Shown: positions 2,009 to 63,767 of the stretch, in pieces | Position numbering within the stretch: position 1 is the stretch's first letter | Layout: every line of letters starts with the position of its first letter | Source of the DNA: an uncultured virus (IMG/VR IMGVR_UViG_3300024270_002537) | Lineage: Duplodnaviria > Heunggongvirae > Uroviricota > Caudoviricetes | IMG/VR virus record: IMGVR_UViG_3300024270_002537 | Reading direction: 5' to 3' (one strand) | DNA: 64,000 nucleotides | The notes under the pieces: generated by a model | Told to the model about the DNA's origin: nothing | The model's database searches: none | The model's input: the letters and a program-made list of their open reading frames with translations, nothing else | Made by a program: the position numbers and the translations under genes

Positions 2009-2029
2009 GAATAGAAACGGAGAAAGAAC

Positions 2030-2977
2030 ATGAAGTTTATCAAGGACTATAGAGAAGGGGACAGAATATCGGATATTTACCTTTGCAAGCACAAGCAGGC
2101 AGCGGTGACCAAGAACGGTAAGCCCTATGAAAATGTGATACTGCAGGATAAAACCGGCACCATTGATGCGAAGGTGTGGGAGCCCAACAGTATGGGCATC
2201 GAGGACTATGATGCCAAGGATTATATTGAGGTGTTTGGCGAGGTAAACAGTTTTCAGGGTGCCTTGCAGGTGAATGTAAAGAGAATTCGTGTTTGCAGAG
2301 AGGGCGAGTACAATCCGGCAGACTATCTGCCCGTTAGTTCCAAGGATATCACGGAAATGTACAGGGAGCTGACAGGAATTATCAGTACCATTAAGAATAC
2401 ATATTTAAAGCAGCTTTTGGAAGCCTTTTTTGTAAAGGATGAGGACTTCAAAAAGCGTTTCTGCAATTCTTCCGCAGCCAAAAGCGTACATCATGGCTTT
2501 GTGGGCGGACTTTTGGAGCATACCTTAAGCGTCACCAAGCTTTGTGATTATTATTGTACGGCGTATCCCATACTAAAGAGGGATTTGCTTTTGACAGCAG
2601 CTATGTGCCACGATATCGGTAAGGTGAAGGAACTTTCCCCCTTCCCGGAGAATGATTATACGGACGAAGGGCAATTCCTGGGACATATCGTCATGGGTAC
2701 CCAGATGGTAGGGGAAAAGGCAGCCGGCATAGAGGGCTTCCCGAAAGGGCTCTTAAGTCAGGTACAGCATTGTATTCTGGCCCACCACGGCAAATATGAG
2801 TTCGGCTCACCCAAGATTCCTGCCATCATCGAGGCAGTGGCCTTAAACTATGCAGACGATACGGATGCCAAGCTGGAAACCTTCAAGGAAATCCTGGAAA
2901 ATGCCGGCGACAACAATGATTGGTTGGGCTACAACCGCTTATTTGAAAGCAACCTGAAGAAGAGTCGGGTGGAGTGA
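2030..2977 (+). CDS. yhaM: 3'-5' exoribonuclease YhaM family (OB fold + HD domain)
   Basis: LQDKTGTIDAKVW OB fold, AAKSVHHGFVGGLLEHT, CHDIGK, ILAHHG. Confidence 0.9.
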   Translation: MKFIKDYREGDRISDIYLCKHKQAAVTKNGKPYENVILQDKTGTIDAKVWEPNSMGIEDYDAKDYIEVFGEVNSFQGALQVNVKRIRVCREGEYNPADYLPVSSKDITEMYRELTGIISTIKNTYLKQLLEAFFVKDEDFKKRFCNSSAAKSVHHGFVGGLLEHTLSVTKLCDYYCTAYPILKRDLLLTAAMCHDIGKVKELSPFPENDYTDEGQFLGHIVMGTQMVGEKAAGIEGFPKGLLSQVQHCILAHHGKYEFGSPKIPAIIEAVALNYADDTDAKLETFKEILENAGDNNDWLGYNRLFESNLKKSRVE

Positions 2978-2999
2978 TTCTAGTTGCAAGGGAGAGATC

Positions 3000-4580
3000 A
3001 TGGATTATAAAAAAAATGATATAGCGATTGTAACCATAGAAGATATCGGAAGTGATGGTGAGGGCATCGGTAAGGTGGACGGCTTCCCCCTTTTTGTGAA
3101 GGATGCTGTCATCGGCGATACTGTGGAAGCCAAGATTATGAAGGCTAAGAAAAATTATGCTTATGCAAGATTAGAGAAGGTGATTACGCCTTCTCCTTTT
3201 CGCGTGGAGCCCAAATGTGCTTACCACAGACAATGCGGCGGCTGCCAGGTACAGGCACTTTCCTACGAAAAGCAGCTGGAGTTTAAGGCCAAGAAGGTGC
3301 GCAATCACCTGCTGCGTATCGGCGGCTTTGAGCAGGAACTTTTGGATACTGTGATGGAGCCCATCGTAGGCATGGAGGAGCCTTATCACTATCGTAATAA
3401 GGCCCAGTACCCCGTAGGCACGGACAAAAACGGAGAGATTATCACCGGCTTTTATGCAGGCAGAACCCATAGCATTATTGCCAATACGGAGTGTTATCTG
3501 GGAGTGCCCGGTAATAAAGAGATTTTGGAATATATTTTAGACTATATGAAGCAGAACAGGGTGACTGCTTATAACGAGGAGACCGGAGAGGGCTGTGTGC
3601 GCCATGTGCTTATACGTACCGGCTTTACCAGCGGAGAAATCATGGTTTGTCTGGTTATCAACGGCAGGGATAAAAAGCGCTGCAAGGCCGGAGAATACCT
3701 GCCTGCTCAGGAGAAACTGCTGGAGAGCTTGACAAAGATATCCGGTATGACCGGTATCTCCGTCAGCATCAATACAGAAAAAACCAATGTCATCATGGGC
3801 CGCGAAGTGCATACAATCTGGGGAGAGGATACCATTTCCGACGTCATCCACGTGCGTGACATGAAAAAGGAAGGTTATCCACAGACCGGGCAGCAGCTGA
3901 CCTTTAAGATTTCACCCCTGTCCTTTTACCAGGTGAACCCTGTACAGACTGAGAAGCTGTACAGCCTGGCACTGGAATATGCAGGACTTACCGGTCAGGA
4001 AACGGTGTGGGATTTGTACTGCGGTATCGGTACCATCTCCCTGTTTTTGGCCGGCAGTGCCAAGAAGGTCTGTGGCGTGGAAATCGTACCACAGGCCATA
4101 GAGGATGCCAGGGAAAATGCCAAGCGAAACCATATAACCAATGCAGAATTCTTCGTAGGAAAGGCAGAGGAGATACTTCCGGAATTTTATGAAAAGATGA
4201 GTGGTGAAGCACAGGCTGGCGGTGTGGCGGCAGAGCCGGGCAAGGAAGGCCAGGCACCGGACATGCTTCATCCCGATGTCATCGTGGTGGACCCGCCCCG
4301 CAAGGGCTGCGACGAAGCCTGCCTGGATACCATGCTGAAGATGCACCCTGAGCGAATTGTTTATGTCAGCTGCGATAGTGCTACAATGGCCAGGGATGTG
4401 AAGATATTGTGCGAAGGCGGATATGAGCTGAAGAAAGTGAGGCCTGTGGACCAGTTCGGGCACACGGTGCATGTTGAGACGGTGTGTCTCTTGAGCAACC
4501 GAAAATCCAAGCCCGATTCTTACGTAGACTTAAGCATCAATATGGAAGATTACCATAGAATTAAGAACGAAGAGAAATAA
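3000..4580 (+). CDS. rlmD: 23S rRNA (uracil-1939-C5)-methyltransferase RlmD/RumA, with C-terminal tail supplied by the prophage
   Basis: TRAM domain, CxxxxxCGGC, SFYQVN, DLYCGIG, VDPPRKG, YVSC, DQFGHTVHVETV. Sequence after 4477 is element-derived. Confidence 0.95.
   Translation: MDYKKNDIAIVTIEDIGSDGEGIGKVDGFPLFVKDAVIGDTVEAKIMKAKKNYAYARLEKVITPSPFRVEPKCAYHRQCGGCQVQALSYEKQLEFKAKKVRNHLLRIGGFEQELLDTVMEPIVGMEEPYHYRNKAQYPVGTDKNGEIITGFYAGRTHSIIANTECYLGVPGNKEILEYILDYMKQNRVTAYNEETGEGCVRHVLIRTGFTSGEIMVCLVINGRDKKRCKAGEYLPAQEKLLESLTKISGMTGISVSINTEKTNVIMGREVHTIWGEDTISDVIHVRDMKKEGYPQTGQQLTFKISPLSFYQVNPVQTEKLYSLALEYAGLTGQETVWDLYCGIGTISLFLAGSAKKVCGVEIVPQAIEDARENAKRNHITNAEFFVGKAEEILPEFYEKMSGEAQAGGVAAEPGKEGQAPDMLHPDVIVVDPPRKGCDEACLDTMLKMHPERIVYVSCDSATMARDVKILCEGGYELKKVRPVDQFGHTVHVETVCLLSNRKSKPDSYVDLSINMEDYHRIKNEEK
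4458..4509 (+). other. attL, crossover dinucleotide GA at 4476-4477
   Basis: CATGTT-GA-GACGGTGTGTCTC-TTGAGCAACCGAAAATCCA. The right arm is the 18/19 inverted complement of 62804-62822, with 13-nt spacers on both sides. Confidence 0.9.
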
Positions 4581-4603
4581 AACATAATAAACCGAACTTA
4601 CAG

Positions 4604-4644
4604 AAGAACTGTTAACACGATGAAGTGTTGGCAGTTCTTTTTTT
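4604..4644 (+). terminator. intrinsic terminator after rlmD (element-encoded)
   Basis: AAGAACTGTTAACAC-gatgaa-GTGTTGGCAGTTCTT followed by a T run. Confidence 0.8.
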
Positions 4645-4759
4645 CGTGTAAGGGAGGTGGTGCCGTTGGGCTGAAAACATAAATTCTCGGATGGTTCTGC
4701 ATCCGATACAAGGTCTGAAACTCTAATCTAAAATAAGGCAAATCTAAGGAGGCAATATT

Positions 4760-5023
4760 ATGGCATTTAAGAAATTTAGAAAAATGAAGGTATATAACGT
4801 GAGTGGCTACAACTATAAAGATACACCGACCATCATCTTAAAAGGAGACTGGCTGAAACAGACAGGGTTCGATATTGGTAGTTTGATTCAGGTGGAATGC
4901 GAGGATGGCAAGTTAATCATCACTCCGAGAGAACCGGAAATGGTGGAATATAATGCTCCATGTGGTCAGTGCATGATGGTGGCAGAAGATTGTAAATGTT
5001 ATGGCAAGAAAGGGAGAAAGTAA
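4760..5023 (+). CDS. SymE-family (AbrB-like) toxin/regulator
   Basis: PTIILKGDWLKQTGFDIGSLIQVECEDGKLIIT, RBS AAGGAGG. Confidence 0.75.
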   Translation: MAFKKFRKMKVYNVSGYNYKDTPTIILKGDWLKQTGFDIGSLIQVECEDGKLIITPREPEMVEYNAPCGQCMMVAEDCKCYGKKGRK

Positions 5024-5025
5024 TT

Positions 5026-5808
5026 ATGGCAAAGATTATCGTATTGGGTGCCATGAAGGGTGGAGTCGGCAAGTCCGTCTCCACTTACAATCTGGCATAT
5101 TCATTGAACAAATTAGGGAAGAATGTTTTGGTAGTGGATTTTGATAGTTCGGCAAATATCACCAGATGCGTGGTAGAGGATATAAAAACTGTTGAAATCA
5201 GTATTGGTGATTTGATGATGAATCAGATGGACGAAGAGGAACAGCCCAATCTGGCTGAGTACATTATTAACAGAAATGGAGTTGACTTTATACCATCATC
5301 AAAAGTGCTGTCTGCTGTAGACGCGAAGCTGAGATTGGAAATGGGAGCCGAGAAGATTCTGGCGTGTATTCTGGAACCGTTCAGAGAAGAATACGACTAC
5401 ATTCTAATTGATACGTGTCCATCATTGAATACTTTGACAATCAATGCCCTTTCCGCTGCAGATGAAGTCATTATAGCGGCAAATCCACAGTTCTGGGCAA
5501 TGGTAGGATTGGAAGACTTCCTTCTGACCGTTAAAAAGATTAAGAACCGTGTCAATTCCAAATTGGAGGTGTCTGGGATTTTGCTGACCATGTGTGAAGA
5601 GAGAACCAACCTTTGCAAAGTTATCACTGAAGAAGTGGCAGAGACATTCAATGGAAAGCTCCGTATCTTTGACAGTAAGATTCCGAGTACAGTAAAAGTT
5701 GGAGAATCCGTTTATTATGGAGAACCATTATTAGAGTATGCACCGAGAACAAAGGCTTGCAGAATGTATCAGAATTTAGCAAAGGAGTTGATTGCAGATG
5801 AAGGCTAA
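5026..5808 (+). CDS. parA: ParA/Soj family ATPase
   Basis: Deviant Walker A KGGVGKS, VVDFD, YDYILIDTCP. Confidence 0.92.
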   Translation: MAKIIVLGAMKGGVGKSVSTYNLAYSLNKLGKNVLVVDFDSSANITRCVVEDIKTVEISIGDLMMNQMDEEEQPNLAEYIINRNGVDFIPSSKVLSAVDAKLRLEMGAEKILACILEPFREEYDYILIDTCPSLNTLTINALSAADEVIIAANPQFWAMVGLEDFLLTVKKIKNRVNSKLEVSGILLTMCEERTNLCKVITEEVAETFNGKLRIFDSKIPSTVKVGESVYYGEPLLEYAPRTKACRMYQNLAKELIADEG

Positions 5809-6763
5809 TGCACCAAAAAGAAAAGTGTTTCAAGACGCAGTGGATTTAATCAGTCCGGAAGCAGTAAATGTTGTAGACAATGAGCAGGCAATGATTTCCG
5901 TGGAGAAGATTGCACCATTCCATAATCATCCATTCCGTCTGTATGAGGGGAAACGCCTTGATGATATGGTGGAGAGTGTCAGAGAGCATGGGATTCTTAT
6001 TCCGGTTATTGTACAGAAAATTGCAGACGGATATGAAATGCTTTCCGGCCACAATAGATGGAATGCGGCTAAGATTGCGGGCATTAAAGAAATTCCGGCA
6101 ATCGTCAAAGAGAATCTGACTGAGAGAGAAGCATATGTGTATGTGATAGAGACCAATATGATACAGAGGTCTTTTGATGACCTCTTACCATCGGAGAAGG
6201 CAGCAGTATTGGCAGAACGATATGAGAAAGTTATGTGTCAGGGCAGAAGAAATGACATTCTGGAAGAGATTGCAATGTTGAATGGAATGGACGTACCGGA
6301 AACTTGTGGACATGATGTCCACAAGTCAAAGAGCAGAGATGCAATCGGAGAAGATTATGGAATGACCGGACGCAATATTGCAAGGTATATGAGATTGAAC
6401 CAGACCACAGATCAGATTAAGGAAATGGTGGATGATGGGGCAATGGCAATGGTGGCAGCAGTGGAATTGTCTTATCTTTCAGAAGAGGAACAGGGACAGG
6501 TGTGTAAGGTTCTGGATGAGCTTGGCGGAAAAATAAACAATGCTCAGGCAGTGGAACTACATAAAGAAGCCGGTTTTCTTACCGCGGATAAAGTGAAGGA
6601 TATTCTGGTGGGAGATGTGAAAGAAAAGCCGGTATCGGATGCAAAGATGTTTGCTCAGATAAAGAAGAAATACTTTAAGGGTAAGTCCACGGATGAAATC
6701 ATGGGAGTTTTGGAACAGGCATTGACCATATGGTTTGCCAGAGAGGGGGAAGTGAATGTTTGA
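5798..6763 (+). CDS. parB: ParB/Spo0J family partition protein
   Basis: GILIPVIV...YEMLSGHNRW...ETNMIQR, overlaps parA. Confidence 0.9.
   Translation: MKANAPKRKVFQDAVDLISPEAVNVVDNEQAMISVEKIAPFHNHPFRLYEGKRLDDMVESVREHGILIPVIVQKIADGYEMLSGHNRWNAAKIAGIKEIPAIVKENLTEREAYVYVIETNMIQRSFDDLLPSEKAAVLAERYEKVMCQGRRNDILEEIAMLNGMDVPETCGHDVHKSKSRDAIGEDYGMTGRNIARYMRLNQTTDQIKEMVDDGAMAMVAAVELSYLSEEEQGQVCKVLDELGGKINNAQAVELHKEAGFLTADKVKDILVGDVKEKPVSDAKMFAQIKKKYFKGKSTDEIMGVLEQALTIWFAREGEVNV
6302..6326. repeat. perfect 12-bp-arm palindrome inside parB (candidate parS)
   Basis: ACTTGTGGACAT-G-ATGTCCACAAGT. Confidence 0.6.
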
Positions 6764-7028
6764 TACAAAAGATATGGATGCTATTTCTCAGGAATATTTC
6801 AATATAATTTGTACCAGTGAATATGATGTGACAGTGCAGTCTAAGAATACAGGGCATTTCTGGTACTTGCATAACGTTACACAGCCAAATACAAATGCGT
6901 GTGTGATCTTTCATAAGCATAAATGTTCACATCCGTATCATCTGCATGGTAGGGCAAATACATTGAGACAGGCAATACATAATATCAAAAGGCATGATAC
7001 TTGGCAGATGAAAGGAAGAAAATATTGA
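6756..7028 (+). CDS. hypothetical protein (His-rich, 90 aa)
   Basis: ORF overlapping the parB stop, RBS GAGGGGG. Confidence 0.7.
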   Translation: MFDTKDMDAISQEYFNIICTSEYDVTVQSKNTGHFWYLHNVTQPNTNACVIFHKHKCSHPYHLHGRANTLRQAIHNIKRHDTWQMKGRKY

Positions 7029-7029
7029 T

Positions 7030-7072
7030 AAATAGGTCGATAGGTCACAAAAAATGGCTTATCGGCCTATTT
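7030..7072. terminator. probable bidirectional terminator between convergent operons
   Basis: AAATAGGTCGATAGGTCA-loop-TGGCTTATCGGCCTATTT. Confidence 0.65.
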
Positions 7073-7076
7073 CTTT

Positions 7077-7289
7077 CTATTTGCTAATGTCTTCATAAGG
7101 CTCCACGTACTGTTCCTGAATGTGTTTGTAAAGGCAGTTATCAGATTCTACATAGATGTCATAACAAACGTCCTCACTGTATTGGAAAGTCCCGTATGCA
7201 TCAATGATAGCGATTTTCCCAATTTTGACTTTGCCGTTTATTAAAAATTGAACTGGGTCTTCGTATTTGAATTTTGGCTTTCCTATCAT
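7077..7289 (-). CDS. hypothetical small beta-rich (SH3/KOW-like) protein
   Basis: 70-aa ORF, last gene of the minus-strand operon. Confidence 0.65.
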   Translation of the reverse strand: MIGKPKFKYEDPVQFLINGKVKIGKIAIIDAYGTFQYSEDVCYDIYVESDNCLYKHIQEQYVEPYEDISK

Positions 7290-7292
7290 ATT

Positions 7293-8186
7293 TTACTGAT
7301 TCTCCTGTTGGGTTTTAAATAATTCCATTTGGCCATCGATATCATTATCAGAAGCAGCTTCAGGAGATTCCGGTTCTTCTTTGGGAAGCTGTTTCTTTTT
7401 AACGGAGTATAATTTCTCCTGACGCAATGGATTGTGACATTTTTTGTTGTAAACAAGCAGAATGGCTTCTGCATAACCTAAAGAACCGGCACGGCGATCT
7501 TTGGCAGTACGACTGATTTCTTTAACTGACACTTTGCTCAGGCGGTCTTTAAAAGTATCGTCCCGGAGTTCGTCATTAAACACATTTATGAGGCGGGATA
7601 CACCATTTAGCATATTTGCACTGAAAGACATAGGTGTGCCTTCCCATGTGCCGATGATCAGACGAAGGGTACGGTCAAGGACATGATAGCCCAATCTGTC
7701 ATGTATGCTTTCCAGTGTTGCAACAGCACATATTCCACCAGGCTGTCCGCTAGATGTAATCTGTAGGTCATATGATTCAACAAGTGCTTGTATCATTAAA
7801 TGCTTGTCACTTCCGGCTTCAATATTTGCCATGAATATTTCATATGGCAGCAGTGGTTTTGTGTATTTCATCTGGTTAGCGAAAATATCGGCTTCATGTG
7901 CATATTCCAAATCATCATAGACCATACACCATACAGGTGTGTCACGGGAACCGGAGACAAGTGCTATGATTTCGATAGTGTGCTGTCCATTAAAGACATA
8001 ATTCAGTCCATCACGTTTACTCACTTTCACTGGATTTATCTGGTATAAATCAAAATGAGCAGCGGCCTTCTGGACGTGCTTGATGGATAAGTTTCTTTGA
8101 TAATCTTGATTGGAAACAAGATTTTTTATTGGTATCTGTTCAAAATGTACGTTAGGTACAAAGGCTTGTAAATCAGTCATTTCCAT
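7293..8186 (-). CDS. ParB/Srx-like protein (DUF6551-like)
   Basis: DYQRNLS...INPVKVSKRDG..YVFNGQHT motif. Confidence 0.7.
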   Translation of the reverse strand: MEMTDLQAFVPNVHFEQIPIKNLVSNQDYQRNLSIKHVQKAAAHFDLYQINPVKVSKRDGLNYVFNGQHTIEIIALVSGSRDTPVWCMVYDDLEYAHEADIFANQMKYTKPLLPYEIFMANIEAGSDKHLMIQALVESYDLQITSSGQPGGICAVATLESIHDRLGYHVLDRTLRLIIGTWEGTPMSFSANMLNGVSRLINVFNDELRDDTFKDRLSKVSVKEISRTAKDRRAGSLGYAEAILLVYNKKCHNPLRQEKLYSVKKKQLPKEEPESPEAASDNDIDGQMELFKTQQENQ

Positions 8187-9132
8187 GTTCCTCCATTGTT
8201 TTTTCTATATTGTAGATTGCGCTTTTTAGCTCAAATAGCTGACTACGAAGTTTATATTTGGCACCTTCCGATATCATGTTAAACGGTGCAGTTGTGCAAG
8301 TCCTGTGAATGGAACTTACCCATGAGGGAATGGTCAATGTCAGACTGGAGATTTCGGCATCCGGATCATATTTGGGAATTTGTTTGATTTCAGGTTCAAT
8401 GCTTTTGACCACAGGACGTGGATATAAGCGTTTCATATTCAGGGCGTTTTCGATATCAGATAACTGAATACGGAAAGTTCCTTTATCAGCGAAGCAGATT
8501 TTTATTTTCTCCAGATCAGATTCTGACATGGCGGCCAGTGCAGATACAGCATTATGGGAAACACGAATACGGTCTGATAGAATGATTTTTGCTATTTCTG
8601 GTGCTTTCGCCATTATTTTTTCGATGTCTTCAGCAAAGATGCCATATTTGTATATGGTGCTGTGGCCGATATTCAATTCGGCACTTAACAAGGTGCTTGT
8701 GTAACTTCGGCTCCCATCATAATGCTCAATAGTGGGTCTTTTTTGGGAGGGTGGGGTAGACTGATTCTGTGTAGGGTATAAGGTAGCAAATACAATTTTC
8801 TGCGCCTGATATAGCTTACCAATAAAGTATTTTTGATATCCTTCTGATAAATTAGGACGTTTTAGTTCACGTCTGCATATCCACGAAATGGCTTCCTCTT
8901 CGATTCTGAAATTGATGGATTTGGTTCTGCAGCGGATACCCAACTCTTTGCAAATATCATATCGTTTATAACCATCCAAAATCATGTGTTTCCATGCCAT
9001 AATTGGTTCGCGACAACCGTTGCGTAATATATCAGTCTTTAACGCTTGATATTCAGGATCGGATACTGGGGGTTTCAGACGTCGGTATCTATCCTTACAG
9101 ACTAAATTTTGAAAATGCGGATTTCTGCTCAT
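8173..9132 (-). CDS. ParB-N-terminal-like protein with putative HTH
   Basis: EYQALKTDILRNGCREPI...ILDGYKRYDIC, LSAELNIGHSTIYKY. Confidence 0.7.
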   Translation of the reverse strand: MSRNPHFQNLVCKDRYRRLKPPVSDPEYQALKTDILRNGCREPIMAWKHMILDGYKRYDICKELGIRCRTKSINFRIEEEAISWICRRELKRPNLSEGYQKYFIGKLYQAQKIVFATLYPTQNQSTPPSQKRPTIEHYDGSRSYTSTLLSAELNIGHSTIYKYGIFAEDIEKIMAKAPEIAKIILSDRIRVSHNAVSALAAMSESDLEKIKICFADKGTFRIQLSDIENALNMKRLYPRPVVKSIEPEIKQIPKYDPDAEISSLTLTIPSWVSSIHRTCTTAPFNMISEGAKYKLRSQLFELKSAIYNIEKTMEEHGND

Positions 9133-9590
9133 AATACATTTGCTCCTTCTGTGTTTCCTATGCATGTGGCTTCTTTTAAGTCAAAAAATGCCAGACGTTC
9201 TTTTGAATAGATCTTTCCTGTTATGCGGTAGGCCTGCGTGCAATCCAGATGAACGAATGTATCACAAAAGGTTGTCAGCAGATATTTACTGTACAGCTCG
9301 CAACACTGTCTTTCGGCAATGAGTTTCCATTTTATTTTGTGTGCCTGACGGTCTCTGGAGTTGCTACAACGTATGGCAATGGTTTGGTTGTGTGGATTTA
9401 CCAAAAGTTGTACATAATCTGGGTTTCCTAATAAATGAAGCGTCTGTTTATGGATGCGTATTCTGTTTTTTCGCATGTCAAATACAACCACAGGTAACTG
9501 ACATGACTCTGTGGTTTTAATATCCGGATTTATCTGATGGAGATTGTCCGGCGGAGTTTCCTTCAACGGTGGCAAGGTTGAGTTGTTCAT
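9129..9590 (-). CDS. hypothetical protein, paralog of the recombinase C-terminal domain
   Basis: DYVQLLVNPHNQTIAIR...AYRITG. Confidence 0.7.
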   Translation of the reverse strand: MNNSTLPPLKETPPDNLHQINPDIKTTESCQLPVVVFDMRKNRIRIHKQTLHLLGNPDYVQLLVNPHNQTIAIRCSNSRDRQAHKIKWKLIAERQCCELYSKYLLTTFCDTFVHLDCTQAYRITGKIYSKERLAFFDLKEATCIGNTEGANVL

Positions 9591-10245
9591 AGGTAGTCTC
9601 CTTTCTCTCTGGCTCAATGGTTTCATTTGATTTACGGGTCGGTTTTAATTCTTCTTGCAGACCAAATACTGCGTAATCATCGAAAAAGTTAATTTGCATA
9701 GCTTTCTTGTGTTCACTGACCGGTAAACCAAACTGAGTTTGCCATGATTCTGGGAAAAGAGGTTTTCTGGAAGCCTTGACTTTGCCATCTTCTTTTATAG
9801 TTCGTTCATAGATTTCTGGGCTGTTCAAGTCGAAAATAAACAATAATTCATCGCCTGAACGTACCAGTTTTCCGAGAAGTTTATAGCGGTAATTTGGGTT
9901 CCAGTCCATGAGTGAAATAACCTTTGCAAAGAACATTCTGCAGGTGATCTGTTTGGGACTTCTTTTTTTGGTGCCGGAACACCAACGGAAAGAATCTTTT
10001 TCGTCTTCACTACATGGGCGTACAGCAAGTTTTTTATCTTCCGGATTTACCAGAATCTGCACATAGTCATATTCTGGTAGTTTCTTTATGCAGGCTGTAT
10101 TAACGCCTACTTTGTAATTGTTAAATGTAATTGACGGTTCATATATGTGGGCAAAGAACTCTCCGCGTACTACCTGATAGCCGTCAAAGTTAAAATCATC
10201 TACTTCAAGTATTTCCATTTCATTCATCAGAGTTTGATCGTTCAT
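9517..10245 (-). CDS. recombinase-associated hypothetical protein, paralog of the recombinase C-terminal domain
   Basis: FNFDGYQVVRGEFF...DYVQILVNPEDKKLAVRP...WNPNYRYKLLG, RBS AGGAGG. Confidence 0.8.
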   Translation of the reverse strand: MNDQTLMNEMEILEVDDFNFDGYQVVRGEFFAHIYEPSITFNNYKVGVNTACIKKLPEYDYVQILVNPEDKKLAVRPCSEDEKDSFRWCSGTKKRSPKQITCRMFFAKVISLMDWNPNYRYKLLGKLVRSGDELLFIFDLNSPEIYERTIKEDGKVKASRKPLFPESWQTQFGLPVSEHKKAMQINFFDDYAVFGLQEELKPTRKSNETIEPERKETTYEQLNLATVEGNSAGQSPSDKSGY

Positions 10246-12115
10246 CACTGACCTCCTGTTTCATATCATCAATAATTGTTTCTATATGACGCTCAATATC
10301 CGCTTTGCTGGTTACCTGAAGAGGTGGTTCGGGGTGGTAGGCAGTTCCTTCTGCCCGGATGTTCCAACCATCCTCATCAGTCTGCGCGGCAAGCTCGGCG
10401 GCTTGAGCCTGACTATAATAGTTATTGCCAAATGTATGTGACCATGACATAGGGTAAGCAAGGATATTTTTCTGGGTGCCGAGGGGCTTTACGTTTTCTT
10501 CAAAAATAGGAGAGCCGTTTTCATCTTCATCAGTTTGAAGAAGTTTGTTGGGAATCAGAACCTCAGTATCCTGCAAATTGAAGAAGAGCAGTGAATCATC
10601 TCCAAACTGCTTTTTAACACCGATAATCCTGTATTTTCGTTCCGTATTCCAACCAAACAGCTCATATAGGTTTGGAAGAAAAGCAGCTCCTGAAATCTGT
10701 TTAGATAATATTTTCCCCTCAGATTGTCTGCTCCATTGCACTGCATTTTTATCTTGCTTACTTGCGGGTCGGACCACAAGTTGGTCCTTGCCAGGATGTA
10801 CGAAAAGTTCTATGTATTGGGTGTCGAATTTTTTAACGCACTCTGTAGAAAACTTTATTGTAGTGGAAGAAAAGGTAATGCATATCTTATTTCCGGTATC
10901 AAAAAACTGAGCTCTTGCAACTTCATATCCTCTTAGGTCAAAATCGCCTCGGTTGACTTTGAGGGGTTGTCCGGGTAATTCAATGACAGGATCATAAATA
11001 CTTTCTGAGGCAAGCCGGTAATCGTTTGCTTTGAATCCAGACCATCTGGGGTTGATGGAAACAAAGCCACGGAGAAGCCCATCCGGAATTACTTTGAGTT
11101 CCGGCAGAATCCCTTTATTTCCATATTTGGCATTGCTTATCAGGCGTTGAACAGCAATGAAGTCATCACGCGAGATAATAGGCTCATGATGATTTTTCTG
11201 TCGATATTGGTTTCTGTCCTGTCGGTTCTTTTTCGACTTATGGTCCAGATAACTGGGTGTCCACGTCTTACGGGCAAGGACATCACCGCAATGGCGCTCA
11301 TTTTGGAGAATCTGCATGATAGAGCCAGGGGACCAGATAGTATTGTCTTTCTTAGTACGTCTGCCCAAATCAGTGAGTGTATTTGCAATTTCTTGACAAG
11401 TGTAACCATACAGGTACATAAAGAAAATAAGGCGGACTGTCTTGGCCTCATCTTCATTGATGACCAGATTTCCGTCTTCGTCATGGTCATAGCCGAGTAA
11501 TGGTGGGGTCAGGAAAATGCCCCTTCGGAATCTCATTTCGATAGAGGCGTTCATGATTTCACTCTTATTATGACTTTCTTCCTGTGCCAGTGTGGAAATG
11601 AATGATAAGCTCATTTCACTATTGGCATTTAGGGTATATATATTTTCTGTTTCAAAAAATACACCAATAGGTGGATTTAGTGCAGCCAGTTTTCGGACAT
11701 ATCCGATACAGTCCAGAACATTTCTTGCAAATCTTGAAACACTTTTAGTAACAATTAAATCTATCTTGCCAGCGTGGCAGTCTTCAATCATCCGTATAAA
11801 GGAATCTCTGTGTTGTAAGGAAGTACCGGAGATACCTTCATCGGCGTAAATTTCAATCAGTTTCCATCCGGGATGCCGGCTTACTACATCTTGATAGTGA
11901 TTTTTTTGCAATTCATATGAAGAGGTCTGGCGTGGATCGTCTGTGGAAACCCTGGCATAAACGGCAACTCTTTTTTCACGGCTATCCTCGTAGAAGTTTG
12001 TTTGAGGAAGTGCCGGAATAATATCTAATTCATCAGAATCTATGCCTTTGTAGCGTTGTCTTATCTTTTCCTTTTGGGAGGCGGCGTTGCCTATGCGTTC
12101 TTCTTTCTCTTTCAT
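10220..12115 (-). CDS. large serine recombinase with atypical C-terminal domain
   Basis: VAVYARVST, YADEGISGT, KSVSRFARN, recombinase domain (LLGYD...HEPIISRDDF). No zinc-ribbon CxxC. Confidence 0.92.
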   Translation of the reverse strand: MKEKEERIGNAASQKEKIRQRYKGIDSDELDIIPALPQTNFYEDSREKRVAVYARVSTDDPRQTSSYELQKNHYQDVVSRHPGWKLIEIYADEGISGTSLQHRDSFIRMIEDCHAGKIDLIVTKSVSRFARNVLDCIGYVRKLAALNPPIGVFFETENIYTLNANSEMSLSFISTLAQEESHNKSEIMNASIEMRFRRGIFLTPPLLGYDHDEDGNLVINEDEAKTVRLIFFMYLYGYTCQEIANTLTDLGRRTKKDNTIWSPGSIMQILQNERHCGDVLARKTWTPSYLDHKSKKNRQDRNQYRQKNHHEPIISRDDFIAVQRLISNAKYGNKGILPELKVIPDGLLRGFVSINPRWSGFKANDYRLASESIYDPVIELPGQPLKVNRGDFDLRGYEVARAQFFDTGNKICITFSSTTIKFSTECVKKFDTQYIELFVHPGKDQLVVRPASKQDKNAVQWSRQSEGKILSKQISGAAFLPNLYELFGWNTERKYRIIGVKKQFGDDSLLFFNLQDTEVLIPNKLLQTDEDENGSPIFEENVKPLGTQKNILAYPMSWSHTFGNNYYSQAQAAELAAQTDEDGWNIRAEGTAYHPEPPLQVTSKADIERHIETIIDDMKQEVSDERSNSDE

Positions 12116-12174
12116 CGTGAGACCATCCTTTGCCGATTATTACATACCTATTATATTTTTCTGGGCATAAAAAG

Positions 12175-12213
12175 AAATCGACCAGAGGTTAAGTATTAAC
12201 CTGTAGTCGATTT
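12175..12213. repeat. imperfect palindrome upstream of the recombinase operon (operator, recombination site or terminator)
   Basis: AAATCGACCAGAGGTTAA-GTA-TTAACCTGTAGTCGATTT. Confidence 0.55.
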
Positions 12214-12240: not shown

Positions 12241-12588
12241 TTATTGGTTTGAATTGCGAAGTGCTACTTTCAGTTCTTTTATCATTTTTAGGATAGCTTT
12301 CTTTTCAGAAATTGTGCAGTCACTTAAAAGAGAAACTATCTCATTTGTTTCTAATTTATTGACGGATGGAACATCAGAACGCAACAACCAGTCTGCTGAA
12401 ACTTGCAAAGCTTCGGTTAAGCGCATGAATACATCAATGCTCATGTTTGCTTTTCCATTTTCAATTTGACTAACATATGTTGGATGGAGTTGTGCTTTCT
12501 CAGCCAGACCTACTTGACTTAGTTTCAAATTGAGTCTGGCTTCTCGAACACGAGCCCCCATCTCTTTCAATTTGATCTCCATTGGCAC
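12241..12588 (-). CDS. XRE-family HTH regulator
   Basis: LSQVGLAEKAQLHPTYVSQIENGK. Confidence 0.9.
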   Translation of the reverse strand: MPMEIKLKEMGARVREARLNLKLSQVGLAEKAQLHPTYVSQIENGKANMSIDVFMRLTEALQVSADWLLRSDVPSVNKLETNEIVSLLSDCTISEKKAILKMIKELKVALRNSNQ

Positions 12589-12720: not shown

Positions 12721-13089
12721 ATGTCAGTAAATTTTAAACTAATCGGAAGAAGAATCAGGGAGGTGAGAACAGAACTTGGAATTTCTCAAGCTGATCTGGC
12801 GGAGCGTAGTAAAACATCTGCCCAGTATTTGAGCCAGATTGAGAACGGGAAAAAGCAAGCCAGTCTGCAAGTATTAGTGTCTGTGGCAGAGGTATTAGAA
12901 GTTTCGCTTAATGAGCTTCTTATGGGAAATCAGGTAAACAATCCGGTGGAGTATCAAAGAGATGTTGTACGGCTTTTGGCTGATTGTTCATCATATGAGA
13001 AGAGGGTACTTTTTGAAATGCTTTTGAATATGAAGGCGGTACTTAGAGAAAATAAGGGGCTGTTAGAAAAAGACTTAGAAAAATATTGA
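12721..13089 (+). CDS. XRE-family HTH regulator
   Basis: ISQADLAERSKTSAQYLSQIENGK, RBS AGGAGG. Confidence 0.9.
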   Translation: MSVNFKLIGRRIREVRTELGISQADLAERSKTSAQYLSQIENGKKQASLQVLVSVAEVLEVSLNELLMGNQVNNPVEYQRDVVRLLADCSSYEKRVLFEMLLNMKAVLRENKGLLEKDLEKY

Positions 13090-13392: not shown

Positions 13393-13425
13393 TATATTAG
13401 ACTTAAAAATCGAGAGGTGTTAGGT

Positions 13426-15945
13426 ATGTTAAAAGATAATACTTTGACTTACATAAGTTTGTTTAGCTGTGCAGGGGTCGGATGTTTCGGTTTTAAGAAA
13501 GCCGGTTTTGAATGCATTGCAACGAATGAACTTATTGAAAGACGTTTGAATGTTCAAAAGTTCAATAATAAATGTAGATTTGATTCAGGGTATATATGTG
13601 ATGATATTACTACAGATGAAACAAAGAAAAAAATATTTGACGAAATAAAACGATGGGAAAAATTGGGCAACGATAGGGTTGATGTACTGATTGCAACGCC
13701 TCCATGTCAAGGAATGTCTGTAGCAAACCATAAAAAAGCAGAAGATGAGATTGTACGTAATAGCTTAGTTGTTGAGTCAATTAAAATTGTGCAGTCAATT
13801 AAGCCGAGATTCTTTATTTTTGAAAATGTACCGGCGTTTATGAAGACTGGTTGTACAGCACCTGATGGAGCTGTTAAAGCCATTGGCGATGTTATCGTGG
13901 AAGAATTAAGTGGCGAATATACCATTACAAGCAGAGTATTAAATTTTAAAAATTATGGTTCAAATTCTTCTCGTACCAGAACCGTTGTGATTGGTGTTTG
14001 TAAAGAGTTGTCAGAGTATATTGCTCCTATTGAACTGTATCCACAGTATAGAGAGGAAAAAATTCTTAGAGAAGTGATTGGCGATATGAAGTCCTTAGAA
14101 TGGGGAGAAATTGCAAGCGATGACTTTTATCATGCATTTCGTACCTATCCTGAGGAAATGCGTGCATGGATTCATGATCTAAAGGAAGGGCAAGGCGCAT
14201 TTGAAAATGCTGATCCACTAAAGAGACCGCATAAGATTGTAGATGGTAAAATTGTGCCTAATCAGCAGAAGAATGGAGACAAATATACTCGTCAATATTG
14301 GGATAAAGTAGGTCCTTGCATTCATACAAGAAATGACCAGTTAGCGAGTCAAAATACGGTCCATCCATGTGATGACAGAGTATTTAGCATTAGGGAATTG
14401 ATGAAAATAATGACAATTCCGGATGAGTTCAAGTGGGTGGCTTATTCGCTGGATGAGTTAAACGGGCTGAATGATAAAGAAAAACATTCAGTTCTAAAAA
14501 AAGAAGAAATCAAGATTCGTCAGAGTATAGGAGAAGCGGTTCCTACGGCCATATTCTTTAGCATTGCAAGGAATATAGTAGATTTTATGCAGCAGAAGCA
14601 TCTTCCTACAGCAATGATAGCTCAGGTTATAAAAAATAATCAATTAGATTGCCCTGAAAATCTGATCAATTTTTTGCGGGAAAATCCAATGAACTTAGGT
14701 ATTTCTTCATTGGCAAGAATTGCTGAATTGACGAATACGCAGAGAGAAAATAATTCTGCATATTATACAAATAAATATATTGTCAATGAAATAGCTAATG
14801 ATTTGCCGGAATATGATAAAGAAGATGTATATATTTTGGAGCCATCTGTTGGAGTGGGTAATTTTTTGCCAATAGTTTTTAAGAAATATGAAGCAATAAA
14901 AAGATTGCACATAGACGTGGTTGATATTGACGATAAAAATTTGGAACTTCTAAAAATATTGGTTGCAAAGATGGGTGTTCCGAGTAATGTTGAGTTGCGC
15001 TATATATGCGATGATTTTTTGCTACATGAATTTAAGCAGACATATGATCTGGTAATTGGTAATCCGCCATTTACTAAGATGAAAGCAGGGGAGGCTAGTA
15101 AATACCTTGCGAATAACTTAAATAAGGAAACGACAAATACATTTGAGTTTTTTCTGGAAAAAGCTATAAATATCGGAGAGTTTGTTGCTATGATTACACC
15201 GAAAGCGTTGCTTAACACGCCAGAGTTTTCAGTTACCAGAAATTGGTTACAAGATATGAATATATCATGTATTCAGGATTTTGGTGAAAAAGGGTTTAAA
15301 GGTGTTTTGGTTGAAACTATCTGTATTTTTATAAATAAAAATAAGAAGCCGGGAAAAACACTTATAAAATCTGCGACATTACAATTACAAATGTTACAAG
15401 AGCAAAAATACGTCACAGATAGTCAGTTTCCGTATTGGTTGATTTATCGCAATGAATTTTTTGATCGAGTATCTGCGAAAATGGATTTTGATAAGTTTAC
15501 GGTTTTTAGAGATAGGCAGATAACAAACAGTAATACTATTTCCGAAAAGAAAGCTGATTCAGTTAGAGTAATAAAGTCGAGAAATATAAGTGATAATGGA
15601 CGTGAAATAATCGATATTCCGGGATATGATGCTTATATAATGAGAGACACTGCAAAAAAATTGAGTGCATTTAAGTTTCTGGGAGATCAAAGAGTATACT
15701 TGACTCCTAATATGACATATAAGCCGCGAGTAATGAAAAATGGAGAAAACGTATTGGTTAATGGTTCTGTTGCGATTCTTATACCAAAAACTGATATTGA
15801 ATTGACGCAGGAGCAGATGGAATATTTTTCAACGGAAGAATATAGAACTTTTTATCAGATTGCAAGAAATTACCAAACCAGATCCTTAAATGTTGACGCC
15901 ACAAGTGTATTCTTTTACGGTGTTCTGAAGGAGGAGAGATCATGA
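13426..15945 (+). CDS. bifunctional fused DNA methyltransferase (C5-cytosine + N6-adenine), M.HpyAV-like architecture
   Basis: N-half FSCAGVG, PPCQG, ENV, QSIGEAVP. C-half LEPSVGVGNF, GNPPF. Confidence 0.88.
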   Translation: MLKDNTLTYISLFSCAGVGCFGFKKAGFECIATNELIERRLNVQKFNNKCRFDSGYICDDITTDETKKKIFDEIKRWEKLGNDRVDVLIATPPCQGMSVANHKKAEDEIVRNSLVVESIKIVQSIKPRFFIFENVPAFMKTGCTAPDGAVKAIGDVIVEELSGEYTITSRVLNFKNYGSNSSRTRTVVIGVCKELSEYIAPIELYPQYREEKILREVIGDMKSLEWGEIASDDFYHAFRTYPEEMRAWIHDLKEGQGAFENADPLKRPHKIVDGKIVPNQQKNGDKYTRQYWDKVGPCIHTRNDQLASQNTVHPCDDRVFSIRELMKIMTIPDEFKWVAYSLDELNGLNDKEKHSVLKKEEIKIRQSIGEAVPTAIFFSIARNIVDFMQQKHLPTAMIAQVIKNNQLDCPENLINFLRENPMNLGISSLARIAELTNTQRENNSAYYTNKYIVNEIANDLPEYDKEDVYILEPSVGVGNFLPIVFKKYEAIKRLHIDVVDIDDKNLELLKILVAKMGVPSNVELRYICDDFLLHEFKQTYDLVIGNPPFTKMKAGEASKYLANNLNKETTNTFEFFLEKAINIGEFVAMITPKALLNTPEFSVTRNWLQDMNISCIQDFGEKGFKGVLVETICIFINKNKKPGKTLIKSATLQLQMLQEQKYVTDSQFPYWLIYRNEFFDRVSAKMDFDKFTVFRDRQITNSNTISEKKADSVRVIKSRNISDNGREIIDIPGYDAYIMRDTAKKLSAFKFLGDQRVYLTPNMTYKPRVMKNGENVLVNGSVAILIPKTDIELTQEQMEYFSTEEYRTFYQIARNYQTRSLNVDATSVFFYGVLKEERS

Positions 15946-17162
15946 ATGAGGCGCAGATACAAAAATTTTTAGATGAACATAATTATGATGTTAGGATAAC
16001 ACACAATGGGCGTTGGATTGATCAAAAGTGTACTATGGATGTTGTTTGTCTGGTTGCAGATTGTATAATAGAGTTTGTGAACAGTCGTCCTGAGAAAACA
16101 TTCACTGTTAATGATATATGGTACAATGAGTATACGGTGGAAAACGTTCAACAGATATTTAGCAAGCCAAACCCGAGTGAAAAAGCATCAAATGAATACG
16201 ATAAGTATTTTGGACAGCCAATTAAGCTACTTGATGCGGCAGGTGTAATACACGGAGAAAAGCAAGGAAGCCGTTATGTTTACGAGATCGTTAATTATGA
16301 TATTCTTGAATATATAAGTTTTAGAGAGAGAAACAGCTATACATTTCTTTGTCTATATATAGAAAAAGTTTTGCGCGACAGCGGTATTTACAGACTGTTT
16401 GAATATTTTTTTAGGTTGCAAGATAAGAACTCTTTTAAAGATTTAAAAGATGGATATACGGAATTTACAATCAAGAATACACCAATTAACGGAGCAACAG
16501 AATGTGGCCGTATCTTTACAAAAGTATTAAATCCGTTAGCATGTAAGTATCGCAAATGCGGAACGGAAAGAGGCCATCTATCCAAAGATGTTATCACGCA
16601 GGATATGATTTTGTATAACCAGAGAAACTGGAGAGATATTTTATCTGAGAAACCGAAAGATATGACACGAGTGGAGTACGAAGTCACATTGCCTAAACCA
16701 GATGAAGACTATATGACAGCGTACCGTATCAATCGAGCTAAACGAAATCTACGTAGATTTAATGATTTGTATAGAAACGGAAGAACCGAGGTGTATGATG
16801 AGCGACATATTGCGGATTGGGCGACACAGATGCATCATATTTTTCCTGCGAGTGATTACCCAACAATTGCAGACTATTTGGAAAATTTAATTGCGTTGAC
16901 TCCGACACAGCATTTTACATATGCTCATCCGAATAACAATACACAATATATTGACAGAATGTATCAGTATATGTGCCTGATATCGAAAACAGGTACAATA
17001 AGAGAAAATTTAAAGAATAAGAATAATGTACCGGTGATATATGACTTTTATCTTTTCCAAACAGTTCTTAGTACAGGGTTGGAAACGGAAGAGTTTTATA
17101 AAGTTAAAGATATGGATTTTGAGCAGATTCTTAATTTGATCGAAGTACATTATGAGGGTTAA
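15942..17162 (+). CDS. HNH-type restriction endonuclease (HpyAV/Hin4II-like)
   Basis: NYDVR..NGRWIDQKCT N-terminus, QMHHIFP...ENLIALTPTQHF..AHP. Translationally coupled to the MTase (ATGA). Confidence 0.75.
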   Translation: MNEAQIQKFLDEHNYDVRITHNGRWIDQKCTMDVVCLVADCIIEFVNSRPEKTFTVNDIWYNEYTVENVQQIFSKPNPSEKASNEYDKYFGQPIKLLDAAGVIHGEKQGSRYVYEIVNYDILEYISFRERNSYTFLCLYIEKVLRDSGIYRLFEYFFRLQDKNSFKDLKDGYTEFTIKNTPINGATECGRIFTKVLNPLACKYRKCGTERGHLSKDVITQDMILYNQRNWRDILSEKPKDMTRVEYEVTLPKPDEDYMTAYRINRAKRNLRRFNDLYRNGRTEVYDERHIADWATQMHHIFPASDYPTIADYLENLIALTPTQHFTYAHPNNNTQYIDRMYQYMCLISKTGTIRENLKNKNNVPVIYDFYLFQTVLSTGLETEEFYKVKDMDFEQILNLIEVHYEG

Positions 17163-17165
17163 ACT

Positions 17166-61173: not shown

Positions 61174-61176
61174 GAA

Positions 61177-63635: not shown

Positions 63636-63648
63636 GGAGAACTTGAAA

Positions 63649-63684
63649 TAGGGGATAAATCCAAAAACGTGGATTTATCCCCTA
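63649..63684. terminator. hairpin, probable terminator
   Basis: TAGGGGATAAATCC-aaaaacgt-GGATTTATCCCCTA. Confidence 0.6.
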
Positions 63685-63767
63685 AATTTATCTATGGTGA
63701 AATATGTGTTGACTGTAGGTGTCAAGTGTCGTACAATTTATTTATGCAATGCATAAAGGAGACGATG

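What the first reader, a model, noticed from the sequence alone, without database searches (positions are those of the whole stretch)
7077..12213. Recombinase operon with a triplicated unknown domain and two ParB-like proteins
Seen: six tightly coupled minus-strand genes. The serine recombinase has no zinc ribbon. Its C-terminus (FDLRGYEVARAQFF...YIELFVHPGKDQLVVRP...WNTERKYRIIG) recurs as the next gene (FNFDGYQVVRGEFF...YVQILVNPEDKKLAVRP...WNPNYRYKLLG) and, more diverged, as the third (YVQLLVNPHNQTIAIR...AYRITG). Two different ParB/Srx-fold genes follow. The prophage att sites are already accounted for by the right-end integrases. Inference: an uncharacterised multi-subunit recombination or nucleoprotein machine (dimer resolution/partition of the circle, an invertase, or a nested element).
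Basis: partly seen in the sequence, partly recalled or inferred. Interest (0 to 1): 0.72.

Follow-up and report, generated by a model that had tools for sequence, protein, structure and literature searches.

The report
Atypical serine-recombinase cassette at prophage end
A conserved, uncharacterised five-gene cassette (an unusual serine recombinase, two free copies of its own tail domain and two ParB-like proteins) forms the outermost operon of a gut-bacterial prophage and of many related mobile elements, and its job is still open.

Summary
Six coupled minus-strand genes lie at 7077-12115. g1 is a catalytically intact large serine recombinase with Resolvase and Recombinase domains but no zinc ribbon. 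Its residues 391-563 recur in g2 (BLASTP E 2e-22) and g3 (profile-profile E 1.2e-11). g5 is DUF6551 (ParB fold), and a model of g4 matches ParB/Noc/KorB structures.

- **Conservation:** g1-g5 keep their order in nearly all 54 related loci. g6 is found in none.
- **Position:** ParA/ParB/orf90 to the left are host genes, so the operon is the first thing inside the prophage. The junction lies at 7025-7077.
- **Relatives:** the cassette is terminal in other elements too, opposite conventional integrases (a zinc-ribbon LSR pair, or three tyrosine recombinases).
- **A reading I withdrew:** I first read g1 as the integrase of a 19.5-kb relative. A survey of 25 right and 5 left junctions overturned this; those ends look tyrosine-recombinase-like.
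- **Subunit contact:** a fold model supports g1-tail/g2 binding (0.64; best control 0.00).

Best guess (0.35): a non-canonical, multi-subunit integration/excision system working beside the conventional integrases. Resolution/stability, defence and inversion remain open.

The parts
12241..12588 (-). XRE-family HTH regulator upstream of g1 on the same strand
   Evidence: PF01381 E 1.5e-14. A co-directional XRE gene lies within 700 bp upstream of g1 in 36 of 50 loci that can be judged; a divergent one lies within 1.7 kb in 12 of 50.
12175..12213 (-). hairpin followed by a T-run between the XRE gene and g1 (terminator-like); a -10-like TATAAT follows before g1
   Evidence: read directly from the sequence
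10220..12115 (-). g1: large serine recombinase, no zinc ribbon, with a novel C-terminal domain (about residues 385-575)
   Evidence: R55, S57, Q63, R128 and R131 are invariant in 15 family members
9517..10248 (-). g2: free-standing copy of the g1 C-terminal domain
9129..9626 (-). g3: shorter, diverged copy of the same domain (core only); its true start is probably downstream of 9626
8173..9165 (-). g4: ParB/Noc/KorB-like protein (N-domain plus helical DNA-binding part)
7293..8186 (-). g5: DUF6551, ParB-fold protein with an NGQHT motif
7077..7289 (-). g6: 70-aa ORF; not part of the conserved cassette
   Evidence: no tblastn match in 0 of 54 loci; no family hit
7030..7072 (.). 43-bp imperfect palindrome at the host/prophage junction, between convergent orf90 and g6
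   Evidence: 18-pair stem; likeness to G358 ends at 7024; shares a motif with the right end
12721..13089 (+). divergent XRE-family regulator
   Evidence: PF01381 E 3.1e-16; 86% identical in L001
59290..63249 (+). two canonical zinc-ribbon large serine recombinases at the far end of the prophage (context, not part of the cassette)
63646..63690 (.). palindrome after orf120 near the probable right prophage end; shares the AAATAGG..GATA motif with 7030-7072
4760..7028 (+). host genes flanking the prophage: SymE-like toxin, ParA, ParB, orf90

Best explanation
The cassette is the outermost, att-proximal operon of a roughly 56.6-kb temperate phage and of many other integrative elements of gut Clostridia. 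It consists of an XRE regulator plus g1-g5.

I think it is most likely a non-canonical, multi-subunit integration/excision (or transposition) system that works beside the element's conventional integrases. The proposed roles are:
- g1 does the serine-recombinase chemistry.
- A beta-rich C-terminal domain of about 180 residues replaces the usual zinc-ribbon/coiled-coil part of g1.
- g2 and g3, free copies of that domain, dock on g1 and supply site reading or direction control.
- g4 and g5, ParB-fold nucleotide-binding DNA proteins, mark or bridge the sites.

What is shown: the gene content, the homology among the three domain copies, the conserved order, the terminal position, the intact catalytic residues and the ParB folds.

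What is only inferred: that g1 acts at a site just beyond g5, that g2/g3 bind it in the cell, and every role given to g4/g5. The DNA unit that g1 moves has not been delimited.
For: Terminal position, reading towards the junction, in several lineages:
- Window: the host-like stretch ends at 7024, and g6 ends at 7077.
- L001: the same host genes (orf90, ParB, ParA, SymE-like) follow within 584 bp of g5, with g1 86% identical.
- L045: host sugar-use genes begin about 110 bp after g5.
- L035: host-like genes follow g5.
- 19.5-kb element: g5 lies 477 bp from the element's right end.

Likeness between relatives breaks at or just after a palindrome that follows g5. This is seen in L002/L004, L039/L045/L041 and L038/L042. 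In L002/L004 the break lies within about 5 bp of the centre of a 53-bp palindrome.

g1 keeps its active-site residues: R55, S57, Q63, R128 and R131 are invariant in 15 members. Its catalytic half matches solved LSRs: 3g13 E 7.9e-37, SPbeta integrase E 2.9e-9, TnpX and TP901-1.

All characterised Resolvase+Recombinase proteins that I recall are integrases, excisionases or transposases (recalled, not tested).

Complex prediction for g1 380-575 with g2 12-200:
- Score 0.64; best of 3 controls 0.00.
- The pass mark was reached by 116 of 157 solved complexes and 2 of 215 mismatched pairs. My own alignments were used, so these counts hold only roughly.
- The runs agree in at least 71% of contacts, and the partner's pLDDT is at least 67.
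- The interface joins the g1 N-terminal motif (residues 392-410) to the g2 core (64-88, 101-109).

A second g4-like plus DUF6551 pair rides on a triple-LSR element in L052, which links this protein pair to LSR elements in general.
Against: The 19.5-kb relative is not integrated by g1.
- Its ends are an 11-bp inverted repeat (10 of 11 matching) around a 6-bp spacer.
- 25 right junctions carry 15 different hexamers.
- In five genomes the left hexamer (GTGCCT in three, ATGCCT, GGCTTT) equals the right one in only 1 of 5.
- G006 shares no dinucleotide in register between its two junctions. That excludes a fixed 2-bp crossover and fits the tyrosine recombinases at the other end.
- The DUF6262 marker of that tyrosine-recombinase arm lies 13-16 kb from g1 in 5 of 5 genomes.

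The window has a canonical zinc-ribbon LSR pair at its other end, 38-41% identical to genes annotated 'integrase' or 'site-specific recombinase' in Streptococcus phage records.

In two deposited phage genomes the g5 stop abuts the stop of a convergent LSR annotated 'integrase'.

No att site for g1 was shown. The palindromes after g5 also look like plain terminators.

The g1/g2 contact is a model's confidence only, and the two chains are paralogues.
Confidence: 0.35

Rival explanations
1. Stability module for the excised or replicating circle. g1 would act as a resolvase-like enzyme that resolves multimers or tandem copies near the joined ends. g2/g3 would be accessory site-binding subunits that impose direction. 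g4/g5 would be ParB/KorB-like clamps that hold, partition or silence the circle.
For: A serine recombinase with ParB-type proteins is the ingredient list of plasmid stability loci (recalled). The cassette occurs with two unrelated integrase types, so its role may not depend on integration. g4 matches ParB, Noc and KorB structures. DUF6551 fusions were reported to bind CTP or ATP (bioRxiv 10.1101/2025.10.10.680097, passages seen). The cassette has its own XRE pair.
Against: There is no ParA in the cassette, and the adjacent ParA/ParB are host genes. No characterised Resolvase+Recombinase protein that I recall is a multimer resolvase. The 19.5-kb element shows no recognisable replication gene. 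No res-like repeat set was found upstream of the cassette.
Confidence: 0.2
2. Cargo with a defence or competition role. The cassette would be a lysogeny-expressed system that acts on incoming phages or rival mobile elements, for example by binding and recombining their DNA.
For: The cassette sits beside a variable block of restriction-modification and other defence genes in every context examined. These include a fused C5+N6 methylase with two restriction enzymes in the window, MmeI-like or type I RM in the 19.5-kb element, and a D12 methylase, AAA_15 and Shedu in L036. It is carried as cargo inside a transposon-like element. g5 weakly resembles DndB-type DGQHR proteins (E 0.0024, below cut-off).
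Against: PADLOC gave no hit for any of the six proteins. I recall no defence system built on a serine recombinase. The cassette is always the outermost operon and always reads towards the junction, which ordinary cargo would not be.
Confidence: 0.15
3. DNA invertase or gene-capture platform. g1 would flip or exchange DNA next to the cassette, either as a switch or as an integron-like collector of the neighbouring variable genes.
For: The region upstream of the XRE genes is a mosaic with sharp breakpoints among near-identical elements. The hairpin after g5 is present as its exact reverse complement in L042 compared with L038.
Against: No shared repeat or attC-like site was found at the breakpoints or in four upstream regions. 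No pair of inverted sites flanks a segment. No orientation variants turned up in the contigs laid on the window.
Confidence: 0.1

Closest known systems
Canonical large serine integrases (Listeria A118, phiC31, SPbeta SprA)
   Same: N-terminal catalytic domain with the serine nucleophile, followed by the 'Recombinase' domain. The gene lies next to the attachment junction.
   Different: The defining C-terminal part is described as a recombinase domain linked to a zinc ribbon domain with an inserted coiled-coil (PMC3783163, passages seen). g1 has no PF13408, and none of the 120 listed relatives of its tail carries it. All PDB sequence matches stop at residue 328. Known directionality factors are not paralogues of the integrase.
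TnpX/TndX transposase-type LSRs of Tn4451/Tn5397
   Same: Clostridial LSRs on non-phage elements. TnpV and TnpW homologues occur in cassette-bearing elements. The TnpX catalytic domain matches g1 at E 9.5e-9.
   Different: [quoted passage not shown] This clade often has DUF4368 (bioRxiv 10.1101/2021.11.05.467528, passages seen), which g1 lacks. Here four partner genes are conserved alongside the recombinase.
CcrA/CcrB of staphylococcal SCC elements
   Same: More than one serine recombinase serves one element. NCBIfam's best hits for g1 are the Ccr models (E 3e-29), far below their cut-offs.
   Different: The Ccr scores (102 bits against a cut-off of 900) rule out membership. Ccr partners are full recombinases, not free tail domains.
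ParB / Noc / KorB CTP-dependent DNA clamps
   Same: The g4 model aligns with their N-domain plus DNA-binding part. g5 belongs to a ParB-fold family.
   Different: No ParA partner, no parS site shown, no sequence-level family hit for g4, and nucleotide binding is untested.
Tn554-type tyrosine-recombinase transposons (context of the 19.5-kb relative)
   Same: A set of tyrosine recombinases plus a small DUF6262 protein at one end. There is no target duplication, and a 6-bp junction sequence appears to travel with the element. The likeness to Tn554 is recalled, not tested.
   Different: This describes the carrier element, not the cassette. Three recombinases rather than two, and an 11-bp terminal inverted repeat.

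Membership tests
Large serine recombinase (LSR) | Resolvase-type catalytic domain with the nucleophilic serine and conserved arginines | tested here: met
   PF00239 E 1.5e-25; R55, S57, R128 and R131 invariant in 15 family members
Large serine recombinase (LSR) | 'Recombinase' domain (PF07508) after the catalytic domain | tested here: met
   E 4e-25, residues 221-327
Large serine recombinase (LSR) | Zinc ribbon domain | tested here: not met
   No PF13408 at E<=0.1. 0 of 120 listed relatives carry it. No invariant cysteine lies after residue 276. Both right-end LSRs of the window do have it.
Large serine recombinase (LSR) | Coiled-coil motif inserted in the zinc ribbon domain | not tested
   No full-length model of g1 was made. 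The homologous g2 domain is mostly beta strands.
Large serine recombinase (LSR) | Short att sites recombined at a fixed central dinucleotide | tested here: inconclusive
   A seeming GC crossover in three genomes came from a conserved host codon. The wider survey shows a variable 6-bp spacer. No g1 site was identified.
ParB / Noc / KorB (g4) | ParB/Srx-type N-terminal domain followed by a helical DNA-binding domain | tested here: met
   Foldseek 5k5d E 3.8e-5, 7ng0 5.8e-4, 1vz0, 6sdk and 8qa9, all with probability 1.00 over 217-239 columns. The model has mean pLDDT 84. TM-scores are low (0.17-0.46) because the domain arrangement differs.
ParB / Noc / KorB (g4) | Match to the sequence family (PF02195) | tested here: not met
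   0 of 13 members hit it at E<=0.1. No PDB sequence hit. The nearest named Atlas cluster is ParB_N, score 0.96 with 184 shared features; this is a lead only.
ParB / Noc / KorB (g4, g5) | CTP (or other NTP) binding, and loading at a specific DNA site | not testable with these tools
   Only literature on other DUF6551 fusions is available.
DUF6551 (g5) | Pfam model above its gathering score | tested here: met
   121.7 bits against a cut-off of 26.8
Known anti-phage defence systems (PADLOC 2.0) | Any component model matched | tested here: not met
   0 hits for all six proteins at E<=0.01
AbrB/MraZ or B3-type DNA-binding barrels (the repeated domain) | Shared fold | tested here: inconclusive
   Best structural match is MraZ 1n0e at Z 4.3 (rmsd 7.4, 101 aligned), then B3 domains at Z 2.9. 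These are below the tool's noise guide. Foldseek PDB found nothing at E<=0.001. The sequence profile found no PDB hit.

The most novel reading that the evidence does not exclude
A split, multi-subunit serine recombinase. The site-reading and direction-setting part of a large serine integrase would have been replaced by a new domain that also exists as two free subunits. These subunits would chain onto the enzyme by motif-to-core strand docking. Two ParB-type nucleotide-gated clamps would bring or hold the DNA sites together. The result would be a programmable recombination machine carried by a very widespread lineage of human-gut phages and transposons.
Probability: 0.15. Interest if true: 0.85.

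Novelty: new variant of a known kind. Interest (0 to 1): 0.62.

Why it matters
**How common it is.**
- The g2 family has 1,891 cluster representatives at E<=0.001 in a library clustered at 50% identity.
- The g1 tail has 867 relatives at E<=0.001.
- The cassette sits in phage records labelled Ca. Heliusvirales. One paper's title and abstract describe that lineage as a widespread and ancient intestinal phage lineage (PMC11283538, listing and passages seen).
- In two deposited genomes all five genes are annotated 'hypothetical protein'.

**Why it could matter.** Large serine integrases are leading genome-engineering tools, and how they choose sites and direction is an active question. A natural clade that drops the zinc-ribbon/coiled-coil part and keeps free copies of the replacement domain would be a new way to build such an enzyme. 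The link to ParB-fold proteins offers a testable role for that fold outside chromosome segregation.

**If it proves to be something else.** A defence or stability module built on a serine recombinase would also be new.

**What I did not find in print.** My searches found no description of this cassette. That covers only those searches of the held library.

Tried and rejected
**1. g1 as integrase of the 19.5-kb element (withdrawn).**
- I delimited the element at 19,466 bp. It is 99.87% identical between G002 and G003.
- I found four empty target sites in congeners.
- I read a shared GC at both junctions in three genomes as a serine-type crossover.
- G002 has only two Resolvase-domain hits, one of them g1, and I took that as support.
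- The survey of 25 of 31 right junctions and 5 left junctions overturned this. The GC is part of a conserved host codon. The ends are an 11-bp inverted repeat around a variable 6-bp spacer.
- The dyad-symmetry statistics were computed on the wrong register.

**2. Prophage left end at 4580-4760 (wrong).** looked there. The true end is at about 7025-7077.

**3. Exact att sites of the window (not found).**
- G358 has diverged beyond orf90.
- The family-wide search for an empty site found only matches of about 70% identity.
- The motif AAATAGG-N1-3-GATA occurs three times, only at the two prophage ends, and 0 of 100 shuffles reached three. Whether these are att sites, ParB-type sites or terminators is open.

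**4. Public reads.** All 24 runs were contigs. The four runs I laid gave short pieces that break at about 7048 and 7092, with no joint or clear loose end at the junction.

**5. Fold and family of the repeated domain.**
- No hit in Pfam, NCBIfam, PHROGs or PADLOC, or in PDB by sequence profile.
- Foldseek against PDB gave nothing at E<=0.001. The wide structural search peaked at Z 4.3.
- BFVD gave only unnamed phage proteins, best E 6.8e-5.
- The protein Atlas gave unnamed or 'putative integrase' clusters without a Pfam family.

**6. g4 against g5.** No likeness by BLASTP or by profile comparison.

**7. Other negatives.**
- Megablast of the region against phage records found nothing.
- The element-end motif of the 19.5-kb relative is absent from the window.
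- No repeat family marks the cargo breakpoints.
- The earlier-findings index held nothing for this place.

Full report
**1. What is in the window**

The window holds host genes on the left, then a tailed temperate prophage.
- Host genes: an HtrA-like protease, an HD/OB protein and a TRAM/U5 methyltransferase, at 659-4580.
- Prophage genes: polymerase A, D5-like primase, terminase, portal, ClpP-type protease, capsid, tail genes, holin and endolysin.
- Far right: two canonical large serine recombinases (LSRs) with zinc ribbons, at 59290-63249.

The six genes of the finding are real and tightly packed. They end at an 18-pair hairpin at 7030-7072. An XRE-type regulator (12241-12588) lies upstream on the same strand. 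A hairpin with a T-run and a -10-like box separate it from g1. A second XRE gene diverges from it.

**2. Checking the observation**

- **g1.** It has the Resolvase and Recombinase domains and no zinc ribbon. All matches to solved structures stop at residue 328.
- **The three copies.** The g1 tail matches g2 at E 2e-22, and g3 at 4e-6. g2 against g3 gives 5e-6. Family profiles of g2 and g3 match at probability 97.4%, E 1.2e-11. g3 holds only the core of the domain. It lacks the N-terminal 'F-D-G-Y-x-V-x-R-x-x-F-F' stretch and the C-terminal stretch that g1 and g2 share.
- **Fold of the domain.** It has no family in four libraries. A model of g2 is confident only in its core: pLDDT is about 90 for residues 35-150 and 66 overall. 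It found no clear known fold. Its only credible look-alikes are unnamed phage proteins.
- **g5.** DUF6551.
- **g4.** No sequence family, but a good model (pLDDT 84) matches ParB, Noc, Spo0J and KorB structures.

**3. Conservation**

g2 has 1,649 relatives at E<=0.001 among 1,779 candidates in one search. A profile search found 1,891 cluster representatives. Fifty-four loci were fetched on g2: 45 from genomes and 9 from viral contigs. They keep the order XRE, g1, g2, g3, g4, g5 almost without exception.
- g5 is the best conserved gene, at 62-85% identity.
- g3 and g4 are the least conserved, at 29-64%.
- g6 is never found.
- g1 relatives keep R55, S57, Q63, R128 and R131, so the enzyme is under selection to stay active.

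About 30 of the loci are one 19.5-kb element that has spread among Blautia, Dorea, Coprococcus, Anaerostipes and others. The independent sample is therefore about a dozen lineages.

**4. Where the cassette sits**

- **The left flank is host DNA.** I first took ParA/ParB/orf90 (4996-7028) for phage genes. They are not. Genome G358 is 81.6% identical to window 4287-7024 and the likeness stops at 7024. In L001 the same host genes lie next to a cassette whose g1 is 86% identical.
- **The operon is the first thing in the prophage.** The junction lies at 7025-7077.
- **The circular form.** In free phage genomes (L002, L054 and two deposited 'complete genome' records) the cassette lies directly against a convergent LSR pair and the lysis genes. 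This is the circular form of the same layout. The window's right end is therefore probably just after orf120, near 63,640-63,770, giving a prophage of about 56.6 kb.
- **Other lineages.** The cassette is again terminal. Host sugar genes start about 110 bp after g5 in L045. The 19.5-kb element ends 477 bp after g5.
- **After g5.** A palindrome usually follows, and relatives often stop being alike at or just after it.

**5. A reading that I had to withdraw**

For the 19.5-kb element I found empty target sites in four congeners. I read a GC shared by both junctions as a serine-type crossover, which would have made g1 the integrase.

A wider look refuted this.
- The element ends in an 11-bp inverted repeat around 6 variable bases.
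- The 25 right junctions recovered (of 31 loci examined; 6 lacked the end, mostly at contig ends) carry 15 different hexamers that follow the host's own codons.
- In five genomes the left hexamer is mostly the same 'travelling' one and equals the right one only once.
- One genome shares no dinucleotide in register between its two junctions.
- This is the pattern of tyrosine recombinases that tolerate unlike overlaps. Three of them, with a DUF6262 protein, sit at the other end, linked to the cassette in 5 of 5 genomes.

So in that element the cassette is carried, not used, for the insertions we can see.

**6. What it most likely does**

Two facts pull in different directions.

First, position. 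In every lineage the cassette is the outermost operon and reads towards the junction, across attP from the conventional integrases. That is where integrases sit, and ordinary cargo would not keep such a place.

Second, the elements already have integrases. The tyrosine set is shown at work in one element. The window's LSR pair is 38-41% identical to genes annotated 'integrase' or 'site-specific recombinase' in Streptococcus phage records.

I therefore rank the readings as follows:
- **0.35:** a second, non-canonical integration/excision or transposition system whose DNA unit is not yet delimited.
- **0.20:** a stability module for the circle (resolution plus ParB-type holding).
- **0.15:** a defence or competition system. 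The cassette always adjoins a variable block of restriction and other defence genes, but PADLOC gave no hit.
- **0.10:** an invertase or gene-capture platform. No sites were found.

The remainder is unknown.

**7. The subunit idea**

A complex prediction of the g1 tail with g2 passed its controls: 0.64 against 0.00. The pass mark was reached by 116 of 157 solved complexes and 2 of 215 mismatched pairs. Contacts agree in at least 71% across runs, and the partner's pLDDT is at least 67.

The contact puts the N-terminal motif of the g1 tail onto the core sheet of g2. In the g2 monomer model that same motif is poorly placed, with pLDDT under 50 at residues 24-29. g3 has a core but no motif.

This suggests, and does not show, a chain of motif-to-core contacts among the three proteins. 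The two chains are paralogues and my own alignments were used, so the calibration holds only roughly.

**8. Comparison with what is known**

g1 works like an LSR in its catalytic half. It fails one defining feature of the family as described, the zinc ribbon with its coiled-coil (PMC3783163, passages seen). It is best called an atypical member of the LSR superfamily, not a canonical serine integrase.

A large survey of LSRs used the three Pfam domains and noted DUF4368 in one clade (bioRxiv 10.1101/2021.11.05.467528, passages seen). In the passages I saw it does not mention this tail domain.

g4 and g5 are ParB-fold proteins without ParA, parS or a proven nucleotide. A 2025 preprint reports CTP or ATP binding by phage DUF6551 fusions.

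My literature searches found no account of the cassette.

**9. Verdict**

The cassette is a new variant of a known kind: widespread, unannotated, and with an unresolved mechanism that simple experiments can test.

Noticed in passing
window 4760-5023 (+): SymE-like type I toxin gene (PF08845, E 1.3e-14) just upstream of the chromosomal parA. The block SymE-ParA-ParB-orf90 is conserved in G358 and next to the L001 prophage.
   Followed up: partly
window 7030-7072 and 63646-63690: The two probable prophage ends carry similar palindromes. The motif AAATAGG-N1-3-GATA occurs only three times in 64 kb, all at these two places (0 of 100 shuffles reached three). They could be att half-sites, ParB-type sites or terminators.
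   Followed up: partly
window 13417-19051 (+): An 842-aa fused C5-cytosine plus N6-adenine DNA methylase, followed by two genes that match the PADLOC type II restriction enzyme model (E 3.7e-155 and 1.2e-96), with two unknown ORFs among them.
   Followed up: no
window 48012-48821 and 37865-39373 (+): A Mom-family protein among the tail genes, and a BspA-type leucine-rich-repeat protein beside the terminase.
   Followed up: no
L052:771-8266: A separate element with three tandem zinc-ribbon LSRs, its own g4-like plus DUF6551 pair and a PemK toxin is inserted inside g1, which is cut near residue 91.
   Followed up: partly
L038:7198-7240 and L042:3281-3320: The hairpin after g5 has identical arms, but its 9-nt loop is reverse-complemented between two 96%-identical relatives. 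The sequences differ completely after it.
   Followed up: no
G002:C1 (loci L057 and L018), 19,466-bp element: An integrative element shared at 99.87% identity between two genera, inserted in a CpaF/VirB11-type ATPase gene at the codons for A-L/M-N-T-G-H. It has three tyrosine recombinases, DUF6262, TnpV and TnpW, a swappable restriction-modification block, 11-bp terminal inverted repeats, and a 6-bp junction sequence that seems to travel with it.
   Followed up: yes
L075:4800-4940 and L077:7630-7760 (PV036432, PV036410): In two deposited Ca. Heliusvirales phage genomes the stops of g5 and of a convergent LSR abut, and a palindrome of about 28 bp spans both stop codons. All five cassette genes are annotated 'hypothetical protein'.
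   Followed up: partly
L026, right flank after the element end: The sequence just beyond the element end looks like a sequencing-adapter remnant at a contig end, so this junction should not be trusted.
   Followed up: no
g2 family alignment A1: Four cysteines (C53, C79, C90, C103) and H34 and H180 are invariant in g2. Three of the four cysteines are replaced in the g1 tail. This may be a metal site specific to the free subunit.
   Followed up: no
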